In this document: piece by piece, positions 9,524 through 60,772 of the stretch
Numbering within the stretch: position 1 is the stretch's first letter
Layout of the letters: every line of letters starts with the position of its first letter
Virus record (IMG/VR): IMGVR_UViG_3300047372_000605
Coordinates: 28,959 to 92,958 of that record
Strand: one strand, 5' to 3'
Source of the DNA: a virus
DNA: 64,000 nucleotides
Made by a program: the position numbers and the translations under genes
Notes under the pieces: model-generated
Database searches by the model: none
What the model saw: the letters and a program-made list of their open reading frames with translations, nothing else
Told to the model about the DNA's origin: nothing

Positions 9524-9528
9524 AATTA

Positions 9529-9558
9529 TTTGGCTTCCCCAATAAAGGTTCGTATATT
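9529..9558 (+). promoter_or_regulatory. TTG-N20-TATATT promoter
   Basis: TTTGGCTTCCCCAATAAAGGTTCGTATATT. Confidence 0.75.
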
Positions 9559-9563
9559 TAAGC

Positions 9564-20261: not shown

Positions 20262-20790
20262 GCAAACTTAGGATGCACAAACAGCTCACCAAAATGGGAG
20301 CTTAGTAATTTAATAACAGGGTAGTTTAAACACCCACAAAACTAAATGATATGAGTACATTATTTCACGAACGAACACCGTTCGACATTTTATTCAAAAA
20401 CTTCTTTCAAGCAGAAGGAAAATTTCAACCAACAACATTCGAAAACAAACAACCTCACCCACTAGATATATTCTATAATGATGATGGTCTCAATTTTGAG
20501 ATTGCCTGTACAGGTTTAACTAAAAAAGATATACAATTAAAAATTGATGGAGATCAATTAAATATATCTTATGATAAACCATCAGAAGAAGAATCATATG
20601 AGGGTTATATCTATAAAGGACTAGCTAAAAGGTCTTTTAAACTAGGATATAAAATAGCAGCTAAATTTGATTTATCAAAAATAGAAGCTAAAATGGAAAA
20701 TGGTTTACTCCATTTATTCATCCCAACAGCCGCAGATAAAAAATCAAAAATAGTAACAATAAAATAAAAAAAACTGCATCCTAGGTTTGC
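20262..20790. repeat. 16-bp inverted repeat bracketing hsp20
   Basis: GCAAACTTAGGATGCA (20262-20277) vs TGCATCCTAGGTTTGC (20775-20790); the only mismatch is a G-U pair in RNA. Confidence 0.85.
20351..20767 (+). CDS. Small heat-shock protein (Hsp20)
   Basis: YKGLAKRSF...AKMENGLLHLFIP alpha-crystallin domain. Confidence 0.92.
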   Translation: MSTLFHERTPFDILFKNFFQAEGKFQPTTFENKQPHPLDIFYNDDGLNFEIACTGLTKKDIQLKIDGDQLNISYDKPSEEESYEGYIYKGLAKRSFKLGYKIAAKFDLSKIEAKMENGLLHLFIPTAADKKSKIVTIK

Positions 20791-20814
20791 TTATTAAACT
20801 ATTTTTATTATATT
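20785..20814 (+). promoter_or_regulatory. Promoter variant upstream of groES
   Basis: TTTGC...ATTATATT (spacing 1 nt shorter). Confidence 0.5.
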
Positions 20815-20842
20815 ACCCACAAACATTAAATTAAATTAAGTT

Positions 20843-36288: not shown

Positions 36289-38309
36289 ATTATACGATTG
36301 AAAAGTTTGACTTAGAAAATTATAAATTTAATTTTGCTCAATGGTCTCATCCCTATTGTTCTCCTAAAAAATTTACCCAAGAACAAATAAATACTCAAAC
36401 TACATATTTAAATAAGGGAGATATTGTAATTGACATTGGAGCTTTTTCTGGAGATACTCCTGTCTTATATGCTAATGCTGTTGGAAAAAAAGGTAAAATT
36501 ATTTCATTTGAAGCTAATCCACATGCTTATGAGATTTTAGAAGTTAATTCAAAACTAAATAATCATTTAAATATAATCCCTATAAATAAAGCAATCACTG
36601 AAAAACCAGGAAAATATACATTTCATTACTCAGATAAAGGATTTTGTAATGGAGGTTTTGCTGAAGAAATTGATATGGGAGTTGGAGCTACAGGTCATGT
36701 GGTACCTTTAGAGGTAGAAGGGGTAAATCTAACAAATTGGTTAGAAAATAATTTAGATAAACAAGAATGGGATAAAATAAGCTTTATTAAAATTGATACT
36801 GAAGGCTATGATTATAAAATTTTAAGATCAAATAAAAAGCTATTTAAACAAATTAGACCCATTTTAGAAGTTGAATTATATCCTGCTTTATCATTAAGAG
36901 AAGTAAAAGAATTTTATAAAATATTAAAGGAAATAGGATATGAAGTATTTCAACAAAATAAAGGAAGAGATTGCTCTTTAAATTCTTTAACTACTAGTTT
37001 GGATGAACGAGGATTTATTCGTACATTTAAAAATATAAAAAGTGGGCAAGATATAGTAGCATATCCTAAAGAAAAAGTACCTAAAGAAAAATTAAAACAA
37101 CCTATGAAAATTAGTTTAATACAACCAAGTAGAAATAACTTAAAATACCTTAAATGGTCTTACAATTCAATTCGTAAAAATCAAGGTGATCATGAAGTAG
37201 AAATTTGTGTTGCTGATGATTTTAGTAATAAAGATAATACTTGGGAGTGGTGTCAAGAAATGATGGAAAAAGATCCATTATTCAAGGCAATTAGAAATGA
37301 AGGCCCAACACGTTTAGGCCATACTATATTATATGATACTCTGGTAAATGACGTGGCTACCAGCGATGTCTGTATGATTTACCATGCTGATATGTACTTA
37401 TGTCCTGGTGCTTTAGATGCGATTGAAAAACATTTAAAAGAAAAAACAATAGTATCACTTACTAGAATTGAACCACCATTACATCCAGATGGGCCAGAAA
37501 AAGTATTAAGAGATTATGGTATAGAACCTGAGGAGTTTAAGGAAGATTTGTTACTAAATAATTTAGGTAGTTCTGATTTTACAGGGCCTGGTCTTAATAC
37601 AACAACAGAAGGTATATTTGCACCTTGGGCATTCTGGAAGAAAGATTTTCAAGAGATAGGAGGACATGATCCTATATTTGCACCTCAATCAAAAGAAGAC
37701 ACAGATATATTTAATCGCTTTCATTTAAACGGAATTAAGTTTATCCAAACATGGGAAGGATTTGTTTATCATATGACTTGTAGAGGTAGTAGATTTGCAG
37801 ATGGAGCCCAAAGAAATCCAAATGGTGAAGTGTTCATGAAAAACCGAGAAACAGATGAATGGTTAAAACAAAATCAAAAATCCACTAGAGAATTTTTACG
37901 TAAATGGGGCCATTTTTGCAAACATGATGCTTTAATGAAACCAATTGTCCCTCCCAAATATGATATTGGTATAATATTAACAAATACAAAAATAGAACAA
38001 TTAGAATTACTAGAACCATGGTGTTCAAACATTTATACAGATGGAGATTATGTGGCTTACCAACAACAAGAATCTTTAAAAACCTCATTTGATTTAAATG
38101 ATAGAGTTAGAATTTTAGAATCTGGAAAAATTAATAATATACTAGTTAATATTGATGGAAATACTTTTACCCAATCTGATTTCCAAATATTACAACAACT
38201 TTCAGAAATAATTCAAGATAGTGGAGAAGTTGGAGAATTTGAATTAGGTAATTTAAAAATTAAAATTAATGATTTAAAAACTTATGAAAATACTTTAATT
38301 AAAGTATGA
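36285..38309 (+). CDS. FkbM-family methyltransferase fused to GT2 glycosyltransferase
   Basis: IDIGA, FEANP, IKIDTEGYD; from ATG 37104 MKISLIQPSRNN, ADD, HADM, IGGHD, EDTD. Confidence 0.85.
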   Translation: MNYTIEKFDLENYKFNFAQWSHPYCSPKKFTQEQINTQTTYLNKGDIVIDIGAFSGDTPVLYANAVGKKGKIISFEANPHAYEILEVNSKLNNHLNIIPINKAITEKPGKYTFHYSDKGFCNGGFAEEIDMGVGATGHVVPLEVEGVNLTNWLENNLDKQEWDKISFIKIDTEGYDYKILRSNKKLFKQIRPILEVELYPALSLREVKEFYKILKEIGYEVFQQNKGRDCSLNSLTTSLDERGFIRTFKNIKSGQDIVAYPKEKVPKEKLKQPMKISLIQPSRNNLKYLKWSYNSIRKNQGDHEVEICVADDFSNKDNTWEWCQEMMEKDPLFKAIRNEGPTRLGHTILYDTLVNDVATSDVCMIYHADMYLCPGALDAIEKHLKEKTIVSLTRIEPPLHPDGPEKVLRDYGIEPEEFKEDLLLNNLGSSDFTGPGLNTTTEGIFAPWAFWKKDFQEIGGHDPIFAPQSKEDTDIFNRFHLNGIKFIQTWEGFVYHMTCRGSRFADGAQRNPNGEVFMKNRETDEWLKQNQKSTREFLRKWGHFCKHDALMKPIVPPKYDIGIILTNTKIEQLELLEPWCSNIYTDGDYVAYQQQESLKTSFDLNDRVRILESGKINNILVNIDGNTFTQSDFQILQQLSEIIQDSGEVGEFELGNLKIKINDLKTYENTLIKV

Positions 38310-43709: not shown

Positions 43710-43712
43710 ATA

Positions 43713-43742
43713 TTTGGAGAAGCAAAATAGGGTTCGTATATT
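43713..43742 (+). promoter_or_regulatory. TTG-N20-TATATT promoter followed by leader hairpin
   Basis: TTTGGAGAAGCAAAATAGGGTTCGTATATT; AGTTAAG-AAACG-CTTAACT downstream. Confidence 0.8.
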
Positions 43743-43789
43743 CACCAAGAAGTTAAGAAACGCTTAACTCACTAAATTAAATAAAGGTT

Positions 43790-43942: not shown

Positions 43943-43968
43943 AACATTTAAAAATAATTGCGTAAATA

Positions 43969-43998
43969 TTTGGGTACCACAGAAAGGGTTCATATATT
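43969..43998 (+). promoter_or_regulatory. TTG-N20-TATATT promoter
   Basis: TTTGGGTACCACAGAAAGGGTTCATATATT. Confidence 0.78.
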
Positions 43999-44016
43999 TA
44001 CCTCAAAATTAAGGTT

Positions 44017-44748: not shown

Positions 44749-45093
44749 ATGAATATTAATATATTATATGGAATGTTGTTTTTTGCTTTAGGGCATTTAG
44801 GAGCATTCTTACAATTAAACGGTCAATTTAAATGGGATTGGTTTAAAAATAATGAATGGATAATAGCTGCTTGTGGTTTTATACTTTCATTCTTTTATAT
44901 TTGGGGTACTAAATACACAGTTGCAGGTACTGAAGGTTTACTTTGGCCAGCTAGATTTATTGGATTTGGTATTGGTATTGTAATTTATGCTTTAATGGTT
45001 AGTTGGTTATTTGGGGAAGGTTTTACTACTAAAACTATAATTTCAATAGCTATATCTGCTTGTTTAATAGCAATTCAAGTATTATGGAAATGA
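44749..45093 (+). CDS. 4-TM small membrane protein (DMT/SMR-like)
   Basis: Four hydrophobic helices; WLFGEGFT.K..I pattern. Confidence 0.6.
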   Translation: MNINILYGMLFFALGHLGAFLQLNGQFKWDWFKNNEWIIAACGFILSFFYIWGTKYTVAGTEGLLWPARFIGFGIGIVIYALMVSWLFGEGFTTKTIISIAISACLIAIQVLWK

Positions 45094-47530: not shown

Positions 47531-47572
47531 ATAAAAGTTATAATATGTATAATCGTTATACTAATATAGCTT

Positions 47573-50533
47573 ATGAAAAAAATATTATTTAGTTTTATAA
47601 CAGTACTAAGTTTATTATCAACTGTTGTAAACGCTCAAAACACAATCTTCGGCTGTACAGATACAGCTGCAGCAAATTATGATTCAACTGCTACTCAAGC
47701 ATTAGCAGGCCCTGTTGAATTTCCAGTACAATGTAACCAAAACGGTTGGGGAGGTAATTATGTAGGTATAAACTTAGCTTTATATCAAGCACACCCATCT
47801 GAATTTGCAGTAGGTACTAAAGTAACAATAGCAGGACATGATTATTGGATTGATGCTATGAATATACCTGGAAATTGTAACCAAGGTGTAGCTTTAATTT
47901 ATATAGCATTAGCTCCTGGATTAGCAGATGGTAATCCATGGTCACCAGCAGGAAATGTAGTACAACCTGTAGTACCAGGTGATGAATGGAGCATAACAGA
48001 ATGCTTTTATAATCCTGGCTGTATGGATGATGATTATGTAGAATATGATCCAAATGCAGATTGGGATGATGGTAGTTGTCAAACATTAAAATTATATGGT
48101 TGTACTGATTCAACTTCATTAAACTATAATCCTTGGGCTAATACAGATGATGGTTCTTGTATAGCTGATTTAAATTGTGGTTTTAATCATGTTGAAATTA
48201 AGGTAACAATAAAAGTAGATAATTGGCCGGGTGAAACAAGTTGGTTATTATTACATTCAAACCCTAATTTAGGAACCACAGATACAACTTATTATGCGCC
48301 TAGAGGAACTTATGTTTGGGGACAACAAGGACAAACTATAGTAACTCGTTTTTGTGCACCTGCAGGTCCAAATCATTTATTACAATTTGTGTTGCAAGAT
48401 TCATATGGTGATGGTATAAGAGGTTCTTCACCACCAAATAATAGTGGGTTTTGTTTAGTTGAAAATATGTCTTGCCCAGATACTATTTTTTATATGTCTG
48501 AAGCAGATGCTGATTTTGGATATGTAATTACTAGTGATGGTACTTATTGGAGTCAAAGGGAACAATTTTGTGGTAGTACTTTAGTTTATCCTGGTTGTAC
48601 AGATCCAGCATATCAGGAATATGATTCACTAGCTACTAATGATGATGGTAGTTGTCAAAATCTTCATGTTTATGGTTGTATGGATTCTACTTCATATAAT
48701 TATGATCCTAATGCTACAGCTTGGGATAATATAGACCAGTGTGAATATAGAGTTATACTTGAAGATGATGGTGGAGATGGTTGGGGAGAAAGCTTTATAG
48801 GTATTAAACAAGGAAATCAATTATGGGATTTTCGTTTGGATCCAGGAGTATATGTTGATACTGCTATAGTATATTTTGATGTAACTGATAATCCAGGTTT
48901 ACAAGAACCTGTTGAATTATACTATTTTGAAATAGGAGATGGGCAACAATCGGCTCAACAAATAGATATTCAAACAATACAAAACTCAGTTAAAATAGAA
49001 AATGATTATGGAATTTTATTCCATGAAGGTAATTTCCCATGGGCAAATGGAAATAAGTTAAAAAATTATCAAACAACAGCAGATATATATTTTGCAACAC
49101 CATTTTGTGGGTATGAATGTATTCCTGCAGTTTATGGTTGTATGGATCCAACTTCATTAAACTATAACCCAGATGCAAATGTAGATGATGGTAGTTGTAT
49201 TCCTATAATTTATGGTTGTACTAATCCTTTAGCATTTAATTATGATTCAACTGCTACTGTTGATGACAATTCCTGTATAGCAACAGTTTATGGTTGTACA
49301 GATCCTACTTCATTTAACTATGACCCAAATGCTAATGTTGATAATGGAACTTGTATTTACCTAGGTTGTACAGATATTACAGCTTGTAATTATGATTCAA
49401 CCGCAAATGTTGATAATGGAGGTTGTATGTATCCTCCTCAATATTATGATTGTAATTATGTTTGTTTAGAAGATACAGATGGAGATGGTATTTGTGATTC
49501 ATTAGAAATACCGGGCTGTACAAATCCACTTTCATTAAACTATAATCCTAATGCTACTGATGATGATGGTAGTTGTATACCTTATGTTTATGGTTGTACT
49601 GATTCTACAGCTTATAATTATAATCCTTTAGCAAATACTGATGATGGTTCTTGTGTTCCTGTAATTTTAGGTTGTACAGATCCCACTATGTTTAATTTTA
49701 ATCCTAATGCAAATGTAGATGATGGTAGTTGCATTCCTATAGTTTATGGTTGTATGGATAATACAATGTTTAACTATAATCCAAATGCAAATGTAGATAA
49801 TGGAAGTTGTATACCATTTATTTATGGTTGTACTGATTCAACAGCATTTAACTATGATCCTCTAGCTAATACTGATAATGGAACTTGTATTCCTGTAATA
49901 TATGGTTGTACAGATCCAAGTGCATTTAATTATAATCCTTTAGCTAATACAGAAGATTTTAGTTGTATACCTGTAGTTTATGGTTGTACAGATTCATTAG
50001 CAGTAAATTATGACCCTGCAGCAAATGTAGATAACGGTTCTTGTATAACAGCAGTTCCTGGTTGTACAGATCCAAATGCTTATAATTTTGATCCAAATGC
50101 AAATGTTCCAGATTCGGCAACTTGTTTATATGATGCAGGTTGTATTACAGGACCTGGTAACCCATATTGGTTAAATGATGATTGTTATGCTTGGGTAATT
50201 AGTGTAGATCCTTATTGTTGTAATGTAGCTTGGGATGCTAATTGTCAAAGTACTTATGATTACTGTGCTTCAAATAGTGGTTGGGTTGGAGTTGAAGATT
50301 TAATCTACGATGGAGGAATAGCCATTTATCCAAATCCTACTACAGGAGAATTAAATATAGTAAGTTCAAGAATTAAAAATGTACTTGTAACTATATATTC
50401 AGTTTCAGGTCAAGTAGTTGTTAATGAAACTAGTGAAAACGTTATTGATATAAGCCATTTAGAAGATGGTGTTTATTTCATGAATGTGAAAGTAGGAGAA
50501 TTAACATATATAAGAAAAGTGATTAAACAATGA
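47573..50533 (+). CDS. Secreted Cys-repeat protein with T9SS type-A sorting domain
   Basis: Signal peptide ...VNA-Q; ~17 GCTD...NY..A..DDGSC repeats; C-terminal IYPNPT...IYS..GQ...DISHL..GVYF...KVIKQ. Confidence 0.88.
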   Translation: MKKILFSFITVLSLLSTVVNAQNTIFGCTDTAAANYDSTATQALAGPVEFPVQCNQNGWGGNYVGINLALYQAHPSEFAVGTKVTIAGHDYWIDAMNIPGNCNQGVALIYIALAPGLADGNPWSPAGNVVQPVVPGDEWSITECFYNPGCMDDDYVEYDPNADWDDGSCQTLKLYGCTDSTSLNYNPWANTDDGSCIADLNCGFNHVEIKVTIKVDNWPGETSWLLLHSNPNLGTTDTTYYAPRGTYVWGQQGQTIVTRFCAPAGPNHLLQFVLQDSYGDGIRGSSPPNNSGFCLVENMSCPDTIFYMSEADADFGYVITSDGTYWSQREQFCGSTLVYPGCTDPAYQEYDSLATNDDGSCQNLHVYGCMDSTSYNYDPNATAWDNIDQCEYRVILEDDGGDGWGESFIGIKQGNQLWDFRLDPGVYVDTAIVYFDVTDNPGLQEPVELYYFEIGDGQQSAQQIDIQTIQNSVKIENDYGILFHEGNFPWANGNKLKNYQTTADIYFATPFCGYECIPAVYGCMDPTSLNYNPDANVDDGSCIPIIYGCTNPLAFNYDSTATVDDNSCIATVYGCTDPTSFNYDPNANVDNGTCIYLGCTDITACNYDSTANVDNGGCMYPPQYYDCNYVCLEDTDGDGICDSLEIPGCTNPLSLNYNPNATDDDGSCIPYVYGCTDSTAYNYNPLANTDDGSCVPVILGCTDPTMFNFNPNANVDDGSCIPIVYGCMDNTMFNYNPNANVDNGSCIPFIYGCTDSTAFNYDPLANTDNGTCIPVIYGCTDPSAFNYNPLANTEDFSCIPVVYGCTDSLAVNYDPAANVDNGSCITAVPGCTDPNAYNFDPNANVPDSATCLYDAGCITGPGNPYWLNDDCYAWVISVDPYCCNVAWDANCQSTYDYCASNSGWVGVEDLIYDGGIAIYPNPTTGELNIVSSRIKNVLVTIYSVSGQVVVNETSENVIDISHLEDGVYFMNVKVGELTYIRKVIKQ
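49133..50125 (+). repeat. Tandem ~78-nt (26-aa) coding repeats
   Basis: About 12 near-consecutive YGCTD...DDGSC units. Confidence 0.85.
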
Positions 50534-51651
50534 TTAGAATTTTATTAATATTAACCTTAATACCATCCATTTTATTTAGCCAGTTTACAGTAACTACTAA
50601 TACTGAATCTTGGGATAAAGAAAAAAAAGAATGGAAACCATTTGAAGATTTTGATGTAAAGTTTAAGAAAGCAATTAAATTTGCTACTTTTTATGGAGCA
50701 TTCAATGGTAATAATAGTATTGCAGATGTAGACAGATATTCAATCAGTACAGGTCAATTAATAACAAATACAGAAAAAACCCCATTTGATTATTCATTAG
50801 TATTAGGAGTAAGAAAAATAGCTAGATTTGGATATGAAAATAGGCAAGCTGTATTTTATAATGGTGAAGAACATTCATATGCAGATGCAGCTACAATAGG
50901 TAAAGTATCTGGATTTGAATTTTTATTTGAAGCTGATTATAAAAGAAGATTTGGTAATACATTTTTAGACCAACAACACTTTTTAAGATACGTAGCTGAT
51001 CATTGGATAGTAAAAATAGAATACATGCAGCAAGGTTTTGCTGATATAAAATATTTTGAAGCATCTCAAAGGTATAGACAAAAAGTAGGTAAGAAATTTT
51101 CATGGAATATAGGTATAGTTCAAAGAATATCTGAACCTTATGGCTACAATCCACTAGAAGAATTCATATTACCAAATGGAAGTTTACATTACACTTCACT
51201 AGCATTACAAGAAGGATACAATATAGATTTTTTACCTAGTGGTGAAATAAATTACTTAAACCCAGAAGGAGAAGTAGTAGCTGATAATAGTATAATTTGG
51301 GAAGAAGTAGTAATACCTCAAGTATTATCTGATTATGTTAAAAGAAAAAAAGAAGAAATACCACAACAATGGAATCATTCTCTTGTATTAGGGTATGATT
51401 TTTATCATTATACTAAAACATTTTGGGTACACTCTTGGGCAAGCATTATGCCATTTCACTTAGAAAGTGGTGAATATGCTTATCATAAATTCATAGCACC
51501 TAAACAAACATGGGTCGATTTTGGAGCAGGCTTTATTTTAGGACATAAATTTAACAAACATCTTGGTGTATTTATAGAAGGTAAATATAATAAGTATTGG
51601 AATAGACAATGGCACGATTTTAGTGTTGGATTAAACTACGTAATTTTCTAA
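50530..51651 (+). CDS. Putative outer-membrane beta-barrel protein
   Basis: Signal peptide, alternating aromatic strands, C-terminal SVGLNYVIF beta-signal. Confidence 0.7.
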   Translation: MIRILLILTLIPSILFSQFTVTTNTESWDKEKKEWKPFEDFDVKFKKAIKFATFYGAFNGNNSIADVDRYSISTGQLITNTEKTPFDYSLVLGVRKIARFGYENRQAVFYNGEEHSYADAATIGKVSGFEFLFEADYKRRFGNTFLDQQHFLRYVADHWIVKIEYMQQGFADIKYFEASQRYRQKVGKKFSWNIGIVQRISEPYGYNPLEEFILPNGSLHYTSLALQEGYNIDFLPSGEINYLNPEGEVVADNSIIWEEVVIPQVLSDYVKRKKEEIPQQWNHSLVLGYDFYHYTKTFWVHSWASIMPFHLESGEYAYHKFIAPKQTWVDFGAGFILGHKFNKHLGVFIEGKYNKYWNRQWHDFSVGLNYVIF

Positions 51652-51661
51652 AAAAATAGTA

Positions 51662-51955
51662 ATGGCAAAAGAGTTAAGTGAAGAATCAGGTTTTAATGTA
51701 AGTATCAAAAGCTTAGCAGGTATAGGTTTTGTGATGGCTACAATCATCGGAATGTGGTTTACATTACAAGCCGATATTGCTGAAGCAAAAGAATTACCTA
51801 CACCCCCACCTTCAGAAGTAACAAGAATGGAATTTGACATGAAAGATCAATTAATACGTCAAACCATTATGACAACACAAAAAGATGTTGAGGAATTAAA
51901 AGAAGATATGGGGCGTATTGAAGAAAAATTAGATAGGTTAATTGAAAAAAGATGA
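51662..51955 (+). CDS. Single-TM + coiled-coil protein
   Basis: TM helix, PTPPP linker, coiled coil. Confidence 0.6.
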   Translation: MAKELSEESGFNVSIKSLAGIGFVMATIIGMWFTLQADIAEAKELPTPPPSEVTRMEFDMKDQLIRQTIMTTQKDVEELKEDMGRIEEKLDRLIEKR

Positions 51956-52278
51956 AAAAGTTTTTAACATTAGTTGCTTTATTTATAACACTTAGTGTTA
52001 CATCACAAATACAAGTAGTACAATTTAATGCTAACTGGAATGCTGCAAATGGGGTTAATTGGTTAAGCAAATTAACTGATTGTAAAACTAATCAAGTAGA
52101 TATTGCTGTGGATAAAGCAGCACAAGCAAAATATAAAATAATAGTAGTGCCAACTATTGTTATTTTTAATCATGGAGAAGAAGTAAAGCGTTTTCAAGCA
52201 AATATTATGATGCAAATAGAGGCTAAATTAGAAGACATACAAAACGTAGTAGATGAAACCGTAATGGAATCATTTTAA
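51952..52278 (+). CDS. Secreted thioredoxin-like protein lacking CxxC
   Basis: Signal peptide; FNANWN replaces WCxxC; VPTIVIF..GEEVKRF. Confidence 0.7.
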   Translation: MKKFLTLVALFITLSVTSQIQVVQFNANWNAANGVNWLSKLTDCKTNQVDIAVDKAAQAKYKIIVVPTIVIFNHGEEVKRFQANIMMQIEAKLEDIQNVVDETVMESF

Positions 52279-52284
52279 AATTCT

Positions 52285-52314
52285 TTTGGATCCTAAATAT
52301 AGGATTCTTATATT
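52285..52314 (+). promoter_or_regulatory. Promoter whose spacer forms an 8-bp hairpin
   Basis: TTT-GGATCCTA-AATA-TAGGATTC-TTATATT. Confidence 0.7.
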
Positions 52315-52332
52315 ACCCTAAATTTATAAGTT

Positions 52333-52572: not shown

Positions 52573-52579
52573 AAAATAA

Positions 52580-52609
52580 CGTGCTATATGCACTTATTTT
52601 TCGTATATT
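52580..52609 (+). promoter_or_regulatory. Promoter variant (GTG-N20-TATATT)
   Basis: CGTGC...TTCGTATATT. Confidence 0.6.
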
Positions 52610-52798
52610 CATGCCATAAAATTAAGGTATGAATAGATATAAAATTTCAATTACAAATTATAATAAACTAGGATACCCAGTTAGTGGTGTATCCAGAGTT
52701 ATTTCTAGTTTAACATTCAGTAAAATTAGAAAATTCCAAAATGCTTATCCAGGTAGGGAAGATTTACATAGAAAATTAGATATTAAAGAAATATAGTC

Positions 52799-53400: not shown

Positions 53401-53595
53401 ATGGCAAAATTAACAAGAAATGTAAATTACTGTAATTACAGATGGGAAGAATATGTGTTAACAGAAGAAGAATTAGCAAAGTGGAAAACGGGTGATGAAG
53501 ATCTCCAACAAGAAATCATAGATGATGCAGATTGGGACCTAGTAAGAGATAAACCAATTGATGATTACGGAGACGTAGAATTTGTAGAAGATTAA
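53401..53595 (+). CDS. Small acidic hypothetical protein
   Basis: 64-aa ORF. Confidence 0.55.
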   Translation: MAKLTRNVNYCNYRWEEYVLTEEELAKWKTGDEDLQQEIIDDADWDLVRDKPIDDYGDVEFVED

Positions 53596-55370
53596 TGAAG
53601 TTTTTAAAATTTTTATTAGTATGGATCAGTCAAAATTTAGCTATACCATTTTGGATAGTAGGACATATTCATTTATCAATACATAATTTTCATGATATGG
53701 TAGAAATAGTATCATCAATAGGAATGAATGTATTAGTAGCAATAGGGTTTTGTATAGATTATTATGAAAACGGAAGATAAGAAATGGTAGTATCTTTAGC
53801 TTATGGGTTAGCAGGGTCAATGTTTTTGGTTGTGTTAACAAATTTATTAATTAAATTATTTAAAAAGTTTAACAATATAGGTTATTCAATAATATATGCT
53901 AGTTTATTCCTTAAATTAATATTTTTAAGTGGGTTTGTATTAGTAACTAAAAATGAAATACCTAATCAAATAATATTTGCAGTTGTAATACTTGGAGGTA
54001 TAATGTATTCAACAGTAAACGTAATATTAAAAGTAAAATGATAAAAAAAGAATGGTTTTGGATGTCAAAACAAAATGAAGATCATTGTCATTATTCAGGA
54101 TTACCATCCCCAATGGCATATGAAAATAAAAAAAATAAAATAACAGTTATGAAAGAATCAATTTTAAAATGGTACCCAATTATAATAGCATTTATTTGCC
54201 TATTATATTCAGTTGGATTAGGTTTATATGGCAATACAACTGAAGCAATGTATTCAGCACATTGGCCAGGAACAATATTATTATTTAGTATAGCAATCAA
54301 TCAAATTAAAAGACAATGAGTATAGTATTTTTCGGAGTTGGGTTTATATTATTTTCAATTTATTTAGTATTTCTTATTTGGAATATTATTTACAATGGAA
54401 ATAAACAACAAGAAGAAAATTACCCAACGTTACAAGATAATGTAATTGATATGGATGGAATTGGTAATCAAGGTAGATTTCCAGCCGAAATTAGTAAACG
54501 TAAAAAAGTCAAAAAGAAATGAAAAATTTTGATTATGAATATTTTTTAATAACGGGTTTACTATTAACCTGGTTATTTATAGTTGTTTTTTATGCCTATG
54601 GGATGGCAGAAAGACAATTTAAAAGTCGAGGTAAAAAAATAAAAAAAGGTTGGTTACAACATTTAGTTAGAAATAGAAGACTAACACCTTTAGAAAGATT
54701 AGGTTCAAGGATAGGTTATTTAGGTGCTGGATTATTAATAGCAGCTCAATGGACAGTAGCTCCACCTTTATATATAGGTGGATTTATTTGTGTATTAGTT
54801 CAAACAACAATTCGTAAACAATGGAATTTAGTATTACTTCAGATTAACGGATTAATAGCTTGGATAATACATTTATTATTTTAGCATACGTATATAGAAA
54901 ATGCAAGAAAGAATTGGTCTGATTCTAATAGCTGGTGTGTTATTAGGAACAATGTTTATAGTAGATTATATTAAAGAAACTATAAAGAAAAATAAAAATA
55001 AGAAACGAAAAAGTTATACATGAAATTAAAATTAATAGTTATATTCTTAATAAGTTTTGTTACAATTAGTAGCCAAAAACAATTAAGTCATGAAATAGCT
55101 CTGGAAGAATTAATAAAAGTATTCCCAGAAGTAGAATTAAATTTAACTAAACCACAAAATAAATTTGTAGCAAGAAAGCAAGCTAACAATAAAGCTTTGG
55201 TATTTATAGCAGGCGCAACTTTTACCACAATAGGTACAACACAATTATTACGCGCTAGAAATAGTAGTTTTAGGTTTGATAGACCTAAAAATACCATTCC
55301 AATTAACCCTCACAATATGCTCATAGGGTTAGGTTTGTTAACAATAAGCTTTAGCTTTGTTATATCTTAG
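53595..55370 (+). other. Run of ~7 small membrane-protein genes (53595, 53784, 54038, 54316, 54519, 54901, 55020)
   Basis: Each ORF has 1-3 hydrophobic helices; tightly coupled. Confidence 0.6.
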
Positions 55371-55389
55371 TATTAACCAAAACCAATAT

Positions 55390-55959
55390 ATGAAATTATA
55401 CACTTTTGACTCAAAAACACTAAAATATAAAAGTTTTAATGTGAGAGGAGGATTAGTGAGGATTGTATCTCTATTATTTATAATATTTTTAGTATTAGGT
55501 GTTTCACCTGCTCCAATAAGAACAGAGTATATTACTGCTGAAAAATTATTATTGATAGAAATAGAGGAAGAAAATAAATTTAGTGAAGAAAATTTAATTA
55601 AAGAAATTAGTAAATTAAATTTCAAATACCCTTATATTGTATTAGCTCAAGCTATTTTAGAAACAGGTACATATGAATCTAAAATATTCAGGGAGAATAA
55701 TAATTTATTTGGTATGAAAGAAGCTAGAGTTAGACTTAACTTAGCTAAAGGTACTCAATATGGACATGCTTATTATGATAATTGGAAAGAATCATTATCA
55801 GATTATGCTTTATGGTATTCAACGTTTGCATATAAATGCAAAACTGAGAATCAATTATATACATTGCTAAATAAGCAATATGCTGAGGCAAATCATTATC
55901 CTCAGGCATTAAAAAGAATAATCAAAAAACAACAATTAAAACAAAAATTTAATAAATGA
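55390..55959 (+). CDS. GH73 glucosaminidase, membrane-anchored
   Basis: AQAILETG, NNLFGMK, YA...Y motifs after a TM helix. Confidence 0.85.
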   Translation: MKLYTFDSKTLKYKSFNVRGGLVRIVSLLFIIFLVLGVSPAPIRTEYITAEKLLLIEIEEENKFSEENLIKEISKLNFKYPYIVLAQAILETGTYESKIFRENNNLFGMKEARVRLNLAKGTQYGHAYYDNWKESLSDYALWYSTFAYKCKTENQLYTLLNKQYAEANHYPQALKRIIKKQQLKQKFNK

Positions 55960-56171
55960 AACGAATAATTTGGATTATGTTAATCCTTTCATTATATTCG
56001 TGTGCATCTATTAAAAAAGCAAAGATGAATAGGATAGTTAAAAAGTTTAACTATACCCAACCTCATCAGAGTTATAGTGATAAATCAACAAGAAGGAGAG
56101 TATTAAAAGTAGTAGGACATGCTCACCATTTTAGTTATAAAATAAAAAGATCAGAAAGTTATGGCAAGTAA
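55956..56171 (+). CDS. Small basic lipoprotein
   Basis: LYS-C lipobox. Confidence 0.5.
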   Translation: MKRIIWIMLILSLYSCASIKKAKMNRIVKKFNYTQPHQSYSDKSTRRRVLKVVGHAHHFSYKIKRSESYGK

Positions 56172-56460: not shown

Positions 56461-56461
56461 A

Positions 56462-56491
56462 TTTGGCTACCTGAAATATTGTTCGTATATT
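56462..56491 (+). promoter_or_regulatory. TTG-N20-TATATT promoter with leader hairpin
   Basis: TTTGGCTACCTGAAATATTGTTCGTATATT; GTTAAG-AGGTA-CTTAAC downstream. Confidence 0.82.
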
Positions 56492-56540
56492 CACCGGGAA
56501 GTTAAGAGGTACTTAACATCATAAATAAAAAATAAAAGTT

Positions 56541-57940: not shown

Positions 57941-57943
57941 ATA

Positions 57944-57973
57944 TTTGGCTACCTGAAATACTGTTCGTATATT
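57944..57973 (+). promoter_or_regulatory. TTG-N20-TATATT promoter (near-copy of 56462)
   Basis: TTTGGCTACCTGAAATACTGTTCGTATATTCACCGGGAAGTTAAG. Confidence 0.82.
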
Positions 57974-58012
57974 CACCGGGAAGTTAAGGTTATAAATAAA
58001 TAAATAAAGGTT

Positions 58013-59732: not shown

Positions 59733-59752
59733 TAAAAGTAATTGCGTAAATA

Positions 59753-59782
59753 TTTGGTTACCTGAAATAGGGTTCGTATATT
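59753..59782 (+). promoter_or_regulatory. TTG-N20-TATATT promoter (identical core to 59477)
   Basis: TTTGGTTACCTGAAATAGGGTTCGTATATT. Confidence 0.82.
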
Positions 59783-59822
59783 TACCATGTAGTTAAGTTA
59801 AAAAATATATAAAATAAAGGTT

Positions 59823-60632: not shown

Positions 60633-60656
60633 AGGTTTAACTACAACATAACCAAT

Positions 60657-60691
60657 CCTCAAGATTCTAGCCCGAAAGGGCTCTTGGGGGC
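60657..60691 (+). terminator. GAAA-tetraloop hairpin element, copy 2
   Basis: CCTCAAG-attct-AGCCC-GAAA-GGGCT-CTTGGGG. Confidence 0.6.
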
Positions 60692-60714
60692 TGTAAAAAA
60701 CAATTGTCAAAATA

Positions 60715-60744
60715 TTTGGCTACCACAGATAGGGTTCGTATATT
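60715..60744 (+). promoter_or_regulatory. TTG-N20-TATATT promoter
   Basis: TTTGGCTACCACAGATAGGGTTCGTATATT; leader identical to that after 59477. Confidence 0.82.
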
Positions 60745-60772
60745 CACATCGTAAGTTAAAAAAATAAAGGTT

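What the first reader, a model, noticed from the sequence alone, without database searches (positions are those of the whole stretch)
47544..52278. Phage four-gene envelope cassette predicted to use the host type IX secretion system
Seen: four tightly packed genes encode a 986-aa signal-peptide protein with ~17 Cys/Asp repeats and a T9SS type-A C-terminal domain, a predicted beta-barrel ending in Phe, a single-TM coiled-coil protein, and a secreted thioredoxin fold without CxxC. Known: T9SS sorting domains target proteins for secretion or surface display in Bacteroidota. Inference: the phage builds a cell-surface apparatus (adhesin, barrel, membrane anchor, folding helper) on the infected cell, for example for aggregation, particle attachment, grazer avoidance or superinfection exclusion. 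It also identifies the likely host phylum.
Basis: partly seen in the sequence, partly recalled or inferred. Interest (0 to 1): 0.82.

Follow-up and report, generated by a model that had tools for sequence, protein, structure and literature searches.

The report
Phage T9SS cargo beside lysis-linked trio
An uncultured marine phage, most likely of Bacteroidota, carries a cysteine-rich protein tagged for its host's type IX secretion system, and the three envelope proteins next to it (outer-membrane barrel, inner-membrane coiled coil, inactive thioredoxin) form a separate set that many phages keep beside their lysis genes and whose role has never been tested.

Summary
The 986-aa protein has a signal peptide, exactly 17 Cys/Asp repeats and a type A T9SS sorting domain (TIGR04183, 52 bits against a cut-off of 23). 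It is followed by a predicted outer-membrane barrel ending in Phe, a single-TM coiled-coil protein and an exported thioredoxin fold without CxxC. The four genes overlap or abut, and they stay linked in about 55 of 60 related viral contigs.

In more distant phages the barrel, coiled-coil protein and thioredoxin stay together with no T9SS-tagged protein. In more than half of the loci with enough flanking DNA they lie directly against an M15 endolysin and a holin. Relatives of the coiled-coil protein also stand alone before the endolysin, including in cultured Pelagibacter phages, which are isolated on SAR11 alphaproteobacteria.

My best reading is a composite. One part is a variable, lineage-specific T9SS cargo. 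The other is a conserved envelope trio that belongs to the lysis module, possibly a spanin-like bridge between the two membranes.

A Bacteroidota host is supported by the sorting domain, by Gln after nearly every signal peptide, and by the lack of Shine-Dalgarno motifs.

Nothing is tested experimentally. This scan has already found the same cassette on other genomes, and those follow-ups reached the same reading.

The parts
47531..47572 (+). 42-nt AT-rich intergenic leader before the cargo gene. It has no Shine-Dalgarno motif. Whether it holds a promoter is not established.
47573..50533 (+). P0001, 986 aa. It has a Sec signal peptide (cleavage predicted VNA|Q), 17 Cys/Asp repeats interspersed with two non-repeat domains (about 200-340 and 390-520; relatives there carry MAM, PF00629), a conserved Cys-rich module, and a T9SS type A sorting domain.
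50126..50266 (+). Conserved Cys-rich module just before the CTD (residues 852-898, motif NPYWLND.C...CC...WD..C...YDYC). It is kept in all relatives, even those with a diverged or shortened tail.
50324..50530 (+). T9SS type A C-terminal sorting domain (residues 918-986).
   Evidence: TIGR04183 52.3 bits (cut-off 23) and PF18962 52 bits (cut-off 27). PF18962 is above cut-off in 9 of 10 diverse relatives.
50530..51651 (+). P0002, 373 aa. It has a signal peptide (FS|Q) and is a predicted outer-membrane beta-barrel of about 14 strands, with an insert of about 70 residues (205-276) and a C-terminal ...NYVIF. It belongs to a virus-only family with no Pfam, NCBIfam or PDB sequence match.
51662..51955 (+). 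P0003, 97 aa. It has a 17-residue N-terminus, one TM helix, a Pro-rich linker and a coiled coil. It is the most conserved of the four (61-85% identity across set 1). It has i-spanin-like architecture but no homology to known spanins.
51952..52278 (+). P0004, 108 aa. It has a signal peptide (TS|Q) and a thioredoxin fold in which WCxxC is replaced by W-N-A-A-N. The cis-Pro motif VVVPT is kept and the C-terminal Phe is invariant.
52288..52307 (+). Terminator-like hairpin 10 nt after the P0004 stop. It marks the end of the four-gene block. A promoter-like TATATTACCC motif follows it.
53595..56171 (+). The window's own probable lysis cluster, 1.3 to 3.9 kb downstream. It holds six small membrane proteins, a glucosaminidase-type endolysin (55357-55959) with an N-terminal TM segment, and a 71-aa lipobox protein (55956-56171) that overlaps the endolysin stop.

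Best explanation
The region is a composite of two things.

**(1) The cargo, P0001.**
- It is exported by Sec into the periplasm, where its 53 cysteines can form disulfides.
- Its type A C-terminal domain is then recognised by the T9SS of a Bacteroidota host, which moves it across the outer membrane.
- The result is a long repeat fibre on or near the surface of the infected cell.
- Its passenger part is the fast-evolving part. Only the last 135 or so residues (Cys-rich module plus CTD) are conserved.

**(2) The trio, P0002, P0003 and P0004.**
- These are an older and more widespread phage unit that belongs to the lysis module.
- P0003 is an inner-membrane protein with a periplasmic coiled coil. 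P0004 is a redox-dead periplasmic thioredoxin fold. P0002 is an outer-membrane barrel.
- Together they cover all three envelope layers.
- I propose that they form a bridge across the periplasm that acts at the outer-membrane step of lysis, or sets its timing. This would be analogous to an i-spanin/o-spanin pair, with a barrel instead of a lipoprotein.
- In the window's clade the cargo gene has been coupled to the barrel gene by stop/start overlap. The barrel may therefore also dock the cargo's conserved Cys module.

**Shown:** the domain identities, predicted folds, synteny, linkage to endolysin and holin, and the Bacteroidota-type signal peptides.

**Inferred:** physical contact among the trio, any role in lysis, T9SS-dependent export, and what the fibre does.
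For: **Domain and fold identities.**
- The CTD is above curated cut-offs.
- The barrel and thioredoxin folds are predicted with confidence.

**Linkage within the window's clade.**
- The four families occur in 60/58/58/55 of 60 loci.
- The gene order is rearranged in L012, L013, L015 and L029, yet the four genes stay linked.

**The trio without the cargo.**
- In 82 loci anchored on barrels only 31-32% identical to P0002, BARREL, TMcc and TRX persist with 0 of 77 CTD proteins upstream.
- The neighbouring small secreted protein there gives no TIGR04183 or PF18962 signal.

**Linkage to lysis genes.**
- An M15_3 endolysin (phrog_894) and a holin (phrog_3427) lie within 2.5 kb downstream of TRX in 33 of 56 loci (set 1) and 30 of 53 loci (set 2).
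- The endolysin directly abuts TRX in 30 and 22 of those loci.

**Endolysin-anchored loci (79).**
- These show CTD-BARREL-TMcc-TRX, BARREL-TMcc-TRX, TMcc-TRX-TMcc, or TMcc alone immediately before the endolysin.
- 68 of the 79 have a TMcc.

**Cultured phages.**
- TMcc relatives occur in Pelagibacter phages. HTVC027P gp15 lies two genes before a peptidase M15. HTVC041P gp46 lies just before the maturase genes.

**Conservation.**
- Identity to the window in set 1 ranks TMcc 61-85% > barrel 52-92% > TRX 45-84% > cargo 29-74%.

**The window itself.**
- Its endolysin cluster is 1.3-3.9 kb downstream.
Against: - There is no homology to any characterised spanin, holin or antiholin.
- In this window the cassette is not adjacent to the endolysin. 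A separate lipobox protein beside that endolysin could be the real outer-membrane lysis factor.
- 23 of 56 set-1 loci show none of the recognised lysis genes within 2.5 kb. My profiles cover only one endolysin family and one holin family.
- Some phages have TMcc-TRX without a barrel (L187-L198), so a three-part bridge cannot be universal.
- Synteny with lysis genes could simply reflect shared late transcription of exported proteins.
- No multimer modelling could be run.
Confidence: 0.5

Rival explanations
1. First reader's model. All four products form one dedicated surface-display apparatus. The barrel anchors or shuttles the T9SS cargo, much as PorP/SprF-type proteins serve SprB-type cargo. 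The coiled-coil protein and the inactive thioredoxin help assemble or fold the Cys-rich fibre. The purpose is adhesion, receptor masking or superinfection exclusion, not lysis.
For: - The cargo stop overlaps the barrel start.
- A CTD protein abuts the barrel in 44 of 45 set-1 loci.
- The conserved Cys module sits before the CTD.
- The barrel has a conserved 70-residue insert that would face outward if the model's 14-strand count is right.
- A periplasmic thioredoxin fold next to a 53-Cys protein is suggestive.
- The passenger is hypervariable, as expected for a surface protein.
- Variable phage T9SS cargo has been reported before (PMC7468147).
Against: - The trio is kept without any CTD protein in 82 deeper loci.
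- TMcc-TRX occurs without a barrel, and TMcc occurs alone, next to endolysins.
- TMcc relatives occur in Pelagibacter phages.
- The barrel shows no PorP/SprF homology: PF11751 gives no hit, and hhalign gives 3.6% probability.
- The thioredoxin has no redox cysteines in any homologue.
Confidence: 0.25
2. The trio regulates lysis timing rather than breaking the outer membrane. P0003 would be an antiholin-like or holin-partner membrane protein, and P0004 and P0002 would feed it a periplasmic or surface signal. This would be comparable in logic to T4 RI/RIII lysis inhibition.
For: - The TM segment and the short cytoplasmic N-terminus of P0003 are its most conserved parts, which suggests contacts within the membrane.
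- Its position is immediately beside the holin and endolysin.
- The window's phage is a distant T4-like phage, with a clamp loader and family B polymerase.
Against: There is no sequence similarity to RI, RIII or any antiholin. There is also no evidence that these phages show lysis inhibition.
Confidence: 0.12
3. The four genes are merely neighbours in a plastic region of exported-protein genes, with no functional link between them.
For: The flanks are highly variable. The cassette lies among many small unknown ORFs.
Against: - Linkage survives rearrangement of order and transfer between unrelated phage backbones.
- The reading frames overlap.
- Identity stays at 52-85% where the neighbours are unalignable.
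Confidence: 0.05
4. P0001 is a virion fibre or decoration protein rather than a secreted host-surface protein.
For: Two of its repeats match a 'virion structural protein' beside the tail-fibre genes of Synechococcus phage S-CAM3 (59.6% identity over 47 residues).
Against: P0001 has a cleavable signal peptide, a T9SS CTD and 53 cysteines, all of which point to export. Virions assemble in the cytoplasm. The match covers only 5% of the protein.
Confidence: 0.03

Closest known systems
Phage-encoded T9SS type A cargo genes: the 'Cryophage' variable genes (Bellas et al. 2020, PMC7468147) and T9SS sorting-domain ORFs in crAss-BACON contigs (de Jonge et al. 2019, PMC6949934)
   Same: A phage gene encodes a secreted protein that ends in a T9SS sorting domain. 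The cargo is highly variable between related phages. The feature is used to infer a Bacteroidota host.
   Different: Those reports describe enzymes, PA14 proteins or BACON proteins as single genes. They do not describe a Cys/Asp-repeat fibre, a conserved pre-CTD Cys module, or an accompanying barrel, coiled-coil protein and thioredoxin set.
Two-component spanins (lambda Rz/Rz1, T4 PseT.3/PseT.2, T7 gp18.5/18.7)
   Same: P0003 has the i-spanin architecture: an N-terminal TM anchor and a periplasmic coiled coil. The set lies beside the endolysin and holin in many phages. The products cover the inner membrane, periplasm and outer membrane.
   Different: There is no sequence homology. The outer-membrane partner would be an integral beta-barrel plus a soluble thioredoxin fold, not a lipoprotein. 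No function has been tested.
SprB/SprF-type pairing of a T9SS cargo with a cognate PorP/SprF-family outer-membrane protein in Flavobacterium johnsoniae (from my own knowledge of the literature)
   Same: The cargo gene is directly followed by a gene for an outer-membrane barrel.
   Different: That pairing concerns type B CTDs, whereas P0001 has a type A CTD. P0002 shows no PorP/SprF homology. The barrel also occurs in phages without T9SS cargo.
Phage-encoded outer-membrane proteins such as lambda Lom, and the cyanophage OMP-like barrels (Pfam PF24653, seen only as an Atlas lead)
   Same: A phage encodes an outer-membrane beta-barrel that is inserted by the host machinery.
   Different: There is no sequence match to either, and the size and genomic context differ.

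Membership tests
T9SS type A cargo (TIGR04183 / PF18962 CTD proteins) | Domain at the extreme C-terminus scoring above the curated cut-off | tested here: met
   52.3 bits (cut-off 23) and 52 bits (cut-off 27), residues 918-986 of 986
T9SS type A cargo (TIGR04183 / PF18962 CTD proteins) | N-terminal Sec signal peptide | tested here: met
   A hydrophobic N-terminus ending VNA|Q was read from the sequence, and relatives show the same. No SignalP was available.
T9SS type A cargo (TIGR04183 / PF18962 CTD proteins) | Secretion depends on a host T9SS | not testable with these tools
   The host is unknown and uncultured. Only indirect signs of the phylum are available.
PorP/SprF family (PF11751) for P0002 | Sequence match to the family profile | tested here: not met
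   PF11751 gives no hit at E<=10 in the whole viral record. hhalign of the P0002 family against five PorP/SprF proteins of a Flavobacteriales MAG gives 3.6% probability.
Outer-membrane beta-barrel (BAM substrate) for P0002 | Signal peptide, barrel fold, C-terminal aromatic residue | tested here: met
   The AF2 model shows about 14 strands. The best matches are Tsx at Z 11.1, NanC and OmpG. The family consensus ends ...NY.IF.
Thioredoxin family for P0004 | Thioredoxin fold with cis-Pro loop | tested here: met
   Foldseek gives 158 hits at E<0.001, and all listed hits are thioredoxins. VVVPT is invariant.
Thioredoxin family for P0004 | CxxC redox site; Pfam gathering score | tested here: not met
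   The site reads W-N-A-A-N, and none of 25 homologues has CxxC. PF00085 scores 21.4 bits against 23.5.
Two-component spanin | i-spanin: N-terminal TM anchor plus periplasmic coiled coil, encoded beside the lysis genes | tested here: inconclusive
   The architecture is met. Adjacency to endolysin and holin is met in relatives, but the gap is 1.3-3 kb in the window. There is no PHROG spanin match.
Two-component spanin | o-spanin: small outer-membrane lipoprotein with a lipobox Cys, embedded in or next to the i-spanin gene | tested here: not met
   P0004 and most homologues have no lipobox Cys. The outer-membrane member here is a barrel.

The most novel reading that the evidence does not exclude
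The barrel, coiled-coil protein and inactive thioredoxin are a lipoprotein-free, three-part replacement for spanins in phages of marine Bacteroidota. They would form an inner-membrane to outer-membrane bridge that opens the outer membrane at lysis. In the window's clade this device would also dock a T9SS-exported fibre through its conserved Cys module, so that surface display and lysis are mechanically coupled.
Probability: 0.22. Interest if true: 0.85.

Novelty: new variant of a known kind. Interest (0 to 1): 0.62.

Why it matters
How phages of Bacteroidota breach the outer membrane is largely unknown. I found no paper describing this barrel, coiled-coil protein and thioredoxin set.

The set is abundant. 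The barrel family has about 3,300 homologues in metagenomes and the cargo tail has 779, all on unnamed contigs of viral size.

If the trio acts in lysis, it would be a new class of outer-membrane lysis factor. It would also be a marker for lysis modules in marine viromes.

The T9SS tag, the Gln after the signal peptide and the missing Shine-Dalgarno motifs together give a practical way to assign uncultured phages to Bacteroidota hosts.

A phage-made, hypervariable surface fibre on infected flavobacteria could also matter for particle attachment or superinfection. That remains speculation.

Tried and rejected
- **PorP/SprF identity of the barrel.** No profile hit, and hhalign gives 3.6% probability.
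- **Pfam, NCBIfam, PHROGs and PDB sequence searches for P0002 and P0003.** Nothing significant. DUF7365 matches 6 of 15 coiled-coil relatives only weakly (best E 0.007).
- **Cultured relatives.** There was no megablast match to the region. There was no tblastn match in 50,697 phage records for P0002, its distant relatives P0260 and P0270, or P0003.
- **Cellular homologues of the barrel.** Only three MAG contigs were found, assigned to Nitrosopelagicus, Flavobacteriales and Rickettsiales. I read these as misbinned viral DNA, so they give no host information.
- **Is the small secreted protein of the distant loci ('X') a short T9SS cargo?** Its last 25 or so residues look CTD-like by eye. However, Pfam and TIGR04183 give nothing, and hhalign against the P0001 tail gives 1.6% probability. 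I rejected this as unproven.
- **Contexts of the most distant barrel relatives (P0312, P0318).** No viral loci were found.
- **Alignment A1.** It was too diverse for a genome scan, so A2 was used instead.
- **Sigma-70 promoter scan.** It found fewer sites than in shuffled sequence and is uninformative.
- **Multimer modelling.** This was not available.
Full report
**What the window is.**
- The window is bases 28959-92958 of a 92,958-bp IMG/VR virus record that CheckV rates 59% complete.
- Its GC content is 26-33%, and nearly all ORFs lie on the + strand.
- It encodes ribonucleotide reductase, a tail-fibre protein, a family B DNA polymerase, GroEL, a clamp loader and PhoH.
- It carries three tRNA genes.
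- No cultured phage is close. The polymerase is at most 35% identical to any deposited phage, and megablast of 20 kb finds nothing.
- I conclude it is an uncultured phage distantly related to T4.

**The observation.**
- Four + strand genes lie at 47573-50533, 50530-51651, 51662-51955 and 51952-52278. Genes 1/2 and 3/4 share ATGA overlaps, and genes 2/3 are 10 nt apart.
- P0001 has a signal peptide, 53 Cys and exactly 17 C..D..NY..A..DDGSC units. The DNA repeat period is 78.
- The C-terminus of P0001 matches TIGR04183 at 52.3 bits (cut-off 23) and PF18962 at 52 bits (cut-off 27).
- P0002 has a signal peptide and ends ...NYVIF. An AlphaFold2 model built on 28 homologues (pLDDT 74.8) gives about 14 strands plus a 70-residue insert.
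- Every good structural match for P0002 is an outer-membrane barrel: Tsx at Z 11.1, then NanC, OmpG, KdgM and autotransporters.
- P0003 is a single-TM protein with a coiled-coil tail.
- P0004 misses the Pfam thioredoxin threshold (21.4 bits against 23.5). Its model (pLDDT 83.9) matches only thioredoxins.
- In P0004 the WCxxC site reads WNAAN, and none of 25 homologues has CxxC. The cis-Pro motif VVVPT and a C-terminal Phe are invariant.

**Co-conservation in the window's clade.**
- A scan of IMG/VR with P0002 returned 60 loci.
- All-against-all clustering of their ORFs gives the four families in 60, 58, 58 and 55 loci. The next family occurs in 35. Absences lie mostly at contig ends.
- The CTD protein abuts the barrel gene in 44 of 45 loci with enough upstream DNA.
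- PF18962 is above its cut-off in 9 of 10 diverse relatives. The L016 group has a diverged tail (TIGR04183 21.1 bits).
- The order is changed in L012, L013 and L015 (P3-P4-P1-P2) and in L029 (P2-P3-P4-P1), but the four stay together.
- Identity to the window ranks TMcc 61-85%, barrel 52-92%, thioredoxin 45-84% and cargo 29-74%.
- The passenger part of the cargo varies in length (721-1353 aa) and in domains (MAM, CBM-like). The last 135 or so residues are kept.

**What changes the reading.**
- The two next most common neighbours are an endolysin (phrog_894, Peptidase_M15_3) and a holin (phrog_3427).
- In about 30 set-1 loci the order is cargo, barrel, TMcc, thioredoxin, endolysin, holin, followed by GroES and the large terminase.
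- I then anchored on barrels only 31-32% identical to P0002 (P0260 and P0270, from the exhaustive search). This gave 82 further loci.
- In those loci barrel, TMcc and thioredoxin are still linked, and an endolysin or holin follows within 2.5 kb in 30 of 53 loci with enough DNA.
- None of those 77 barrels has a CTD protein upstream.
- Instead, a 150-310 aa secreted, acidic, Cys-rich protein with an LDL-A-like motif follows the barrel. It gives no T9SS signal.
- Anchoring on the endolysin gave 79 loci with every intermediate arrangement: the full four genes, the trio alone, TMcc-thioredoxin-TMcc, or a TMcc-type protein alone overlapping the endolysin start.
- The longer TMcc subtype has homologues in cultured Pelagibacter phages, sharing the motif EFR[IV]KWPRG. 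HTVC027P gp15 lies two genes before its M15 peptidase, and HTVC041P gp46 lies just before the maturase genes. Those phages were isolated on Pelagibacter; that SAR11 lacks a T9SS is my own knowledge, not a result here.
- So the coiled-coil protein is tied to lysis genes, not to T9SS. The thioredoxin and the barrel are successive additions, and the T9SS cargo is the most recent and most clade-specific one.

**The window's own context.**
- The cassette ends in a hairpin at 52288-52307.
- From 53595 there is a run of small membrane proteins.
- Next comes a glucosaminidase-type endolysin (PF01832 59 bits, phrog_21890) with an N-terminal TM segment.
- A 71-aa lipobox protein overlaps the endolysin stop.
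- In this phage the cassette is therefore near the lysis genes but not against them. That lipoprotein is a competing candidate for the outer-membrane step of lysis.

**Host.**
- The T9SS tag points to Bacteroidota.
- Independently, almost every signal peptide of the barrel, thioredoxin and cargo families ends in a small residue followed by Gln. This is the Bacteroidetes Q-rule as described in PMC10367356.
- Shine-Dalgarno-like motifs occur before only 9 of 94 genes, against 17% at random positions. From my own knowledge, this fits the weak use of Shine-Dalgarno sequences in this phylum.
- Cellular genome hits were three inconsistently binned MAG contigs and say nothing about the host.
- The host genus remains unknown.

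**Mechanism.**
- *Shown:* the identities, predicted folds, locations implied by the signals, and genetic linkage.
- *Inferred:* P0001 crosses the inner membrane by Sec, folds with disulfides, and is exported by the host T9SS.
- *Inferred:* P0003 (inner membrane), P0004 (periplasm) and P0002 (outer membrane) contact one another and act in or on lysis.
- I favour a spanin-like bridge, because the architecture of P0003 and the position of the set match the spanin slot. There is no homology to known spanins, and the barrel is not universal.

**Prior knowledge.**
- Phage-encoded T9SS cargo has been reported: Cryophage (PMC7468147) and crAss-BACON contigs (PMC6949934).
- I found no paper on the trio.
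- Earlier notes of this scan describe the same cassette on other genomes and reach the same 'trio beside lysis genes' reading.
- I reached that reading, before looking at those notes, and I tested it here on my own loci. They are not independent evidence.

**Limits.**
- No multimer modelling was available, and there are no expression data.
- My lysis-gene profiles cover only one endolysin family and one holin family, so the linkage counts are lower bounds.
- ORFs in the loci were called mechanically.

Noticed in passing
window 53595-56171: Probable lysis cluster of this phage. It holds six small membrane proteins (1-3 TM each), a glucosaminidase endolysin with an N-terminal TM segment (possibly signal-anchor-release type), and a 71-aa protein with a lipobox (..LYSC) whose start overlaps the endolysin stop. 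That last protein is an o-spanin or u-spanin candidate.
   Followed up: partly
window intergenic regions, e.g. 9524-9563, 43710-43789, 43943-44016, 52573-52628, 56461-56540, 57941-58012, 59733-59822, 60633-60772: A promoter-like motif recurs before many small genes: TTTGG, then a spacer of about 17-20 nt, then GTTCGTATATT(C/T)A. A second motif, TATATTACCC, occurs at 20768-20842 and 52279-52332.
   Followed up: no
L073-L152, gene directly after the barrel (e.g. L122:7554-8234, L142:8011-8559): A family of 150-310 aa secreted, very acidic, Cys-rich proteins with an LDL-receptor-A-like motif (NDGWEDCVDASDE) and D/T-rich repeats. It occupies the place of the T9SS cargo in distant phages and gives no CTD signal.
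   Followed up: partly
L234 (Pelagibacter phage HTVC027P gp15-gp17), L235 (HTVC041P gp46-gp47): Cultured SAR11 phages carry a TM coiled-coil protein related to the longer TMcc subtype. It is followed by a 71-74 aa protein and, in HTVC027P, by the M15 endolysin. This is a possible unannotated lysis pair.
   Followed up: partly
IMGVR_UViG_3300030116_004105 (L023/L166 and L030/L156): One 96-kb contig carries two divergent complete copies of cargo-barrel-TMcc-thioredoxin-endolysin-holin, one near each end and with different downstream genes. This is either a duplication or a chimeric assembly.
   Followed up: no
L002-L004, L007-L010, gene after the thioredoxin (e.g. L002:2019-2474): In seven of the window's nine closest relatives a staphylococcal-nuclease-like protein (about 117-151 aa) follows the thioredoxin. 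In four of these (L002, L004, L007, L008) a 115-aa protein with several predicted TM helices comes next. In the window the nuclease is absent, and the membrane protein's homologue lies upstream at 44749-45093.
   Followed up: no
L072 (Synechococcus phage S-CAM3, record 36382-37932): A cyanophage 'virion structural protein' next to tail-fibre genes shares two of the Cys/Asp repeats (59.6% identity over 47 residues). The repeat is therefore a module shared with virion proteins of unrelated marine phages.
   Followed up: partly
L016-L021, L054, L057: In this sub-clade the cargo ORF appears fused at its N-terminus to a phrog_7595-like basic protein that is a separate 104-aa gene elsewhere. Its CTD is diverged (TIGR04183 21.1 bits), and the thioredoxin signal peptide does not follow the Q-rule. 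This may be an ORF-calling artefact or a different host group.
   Followed up: no
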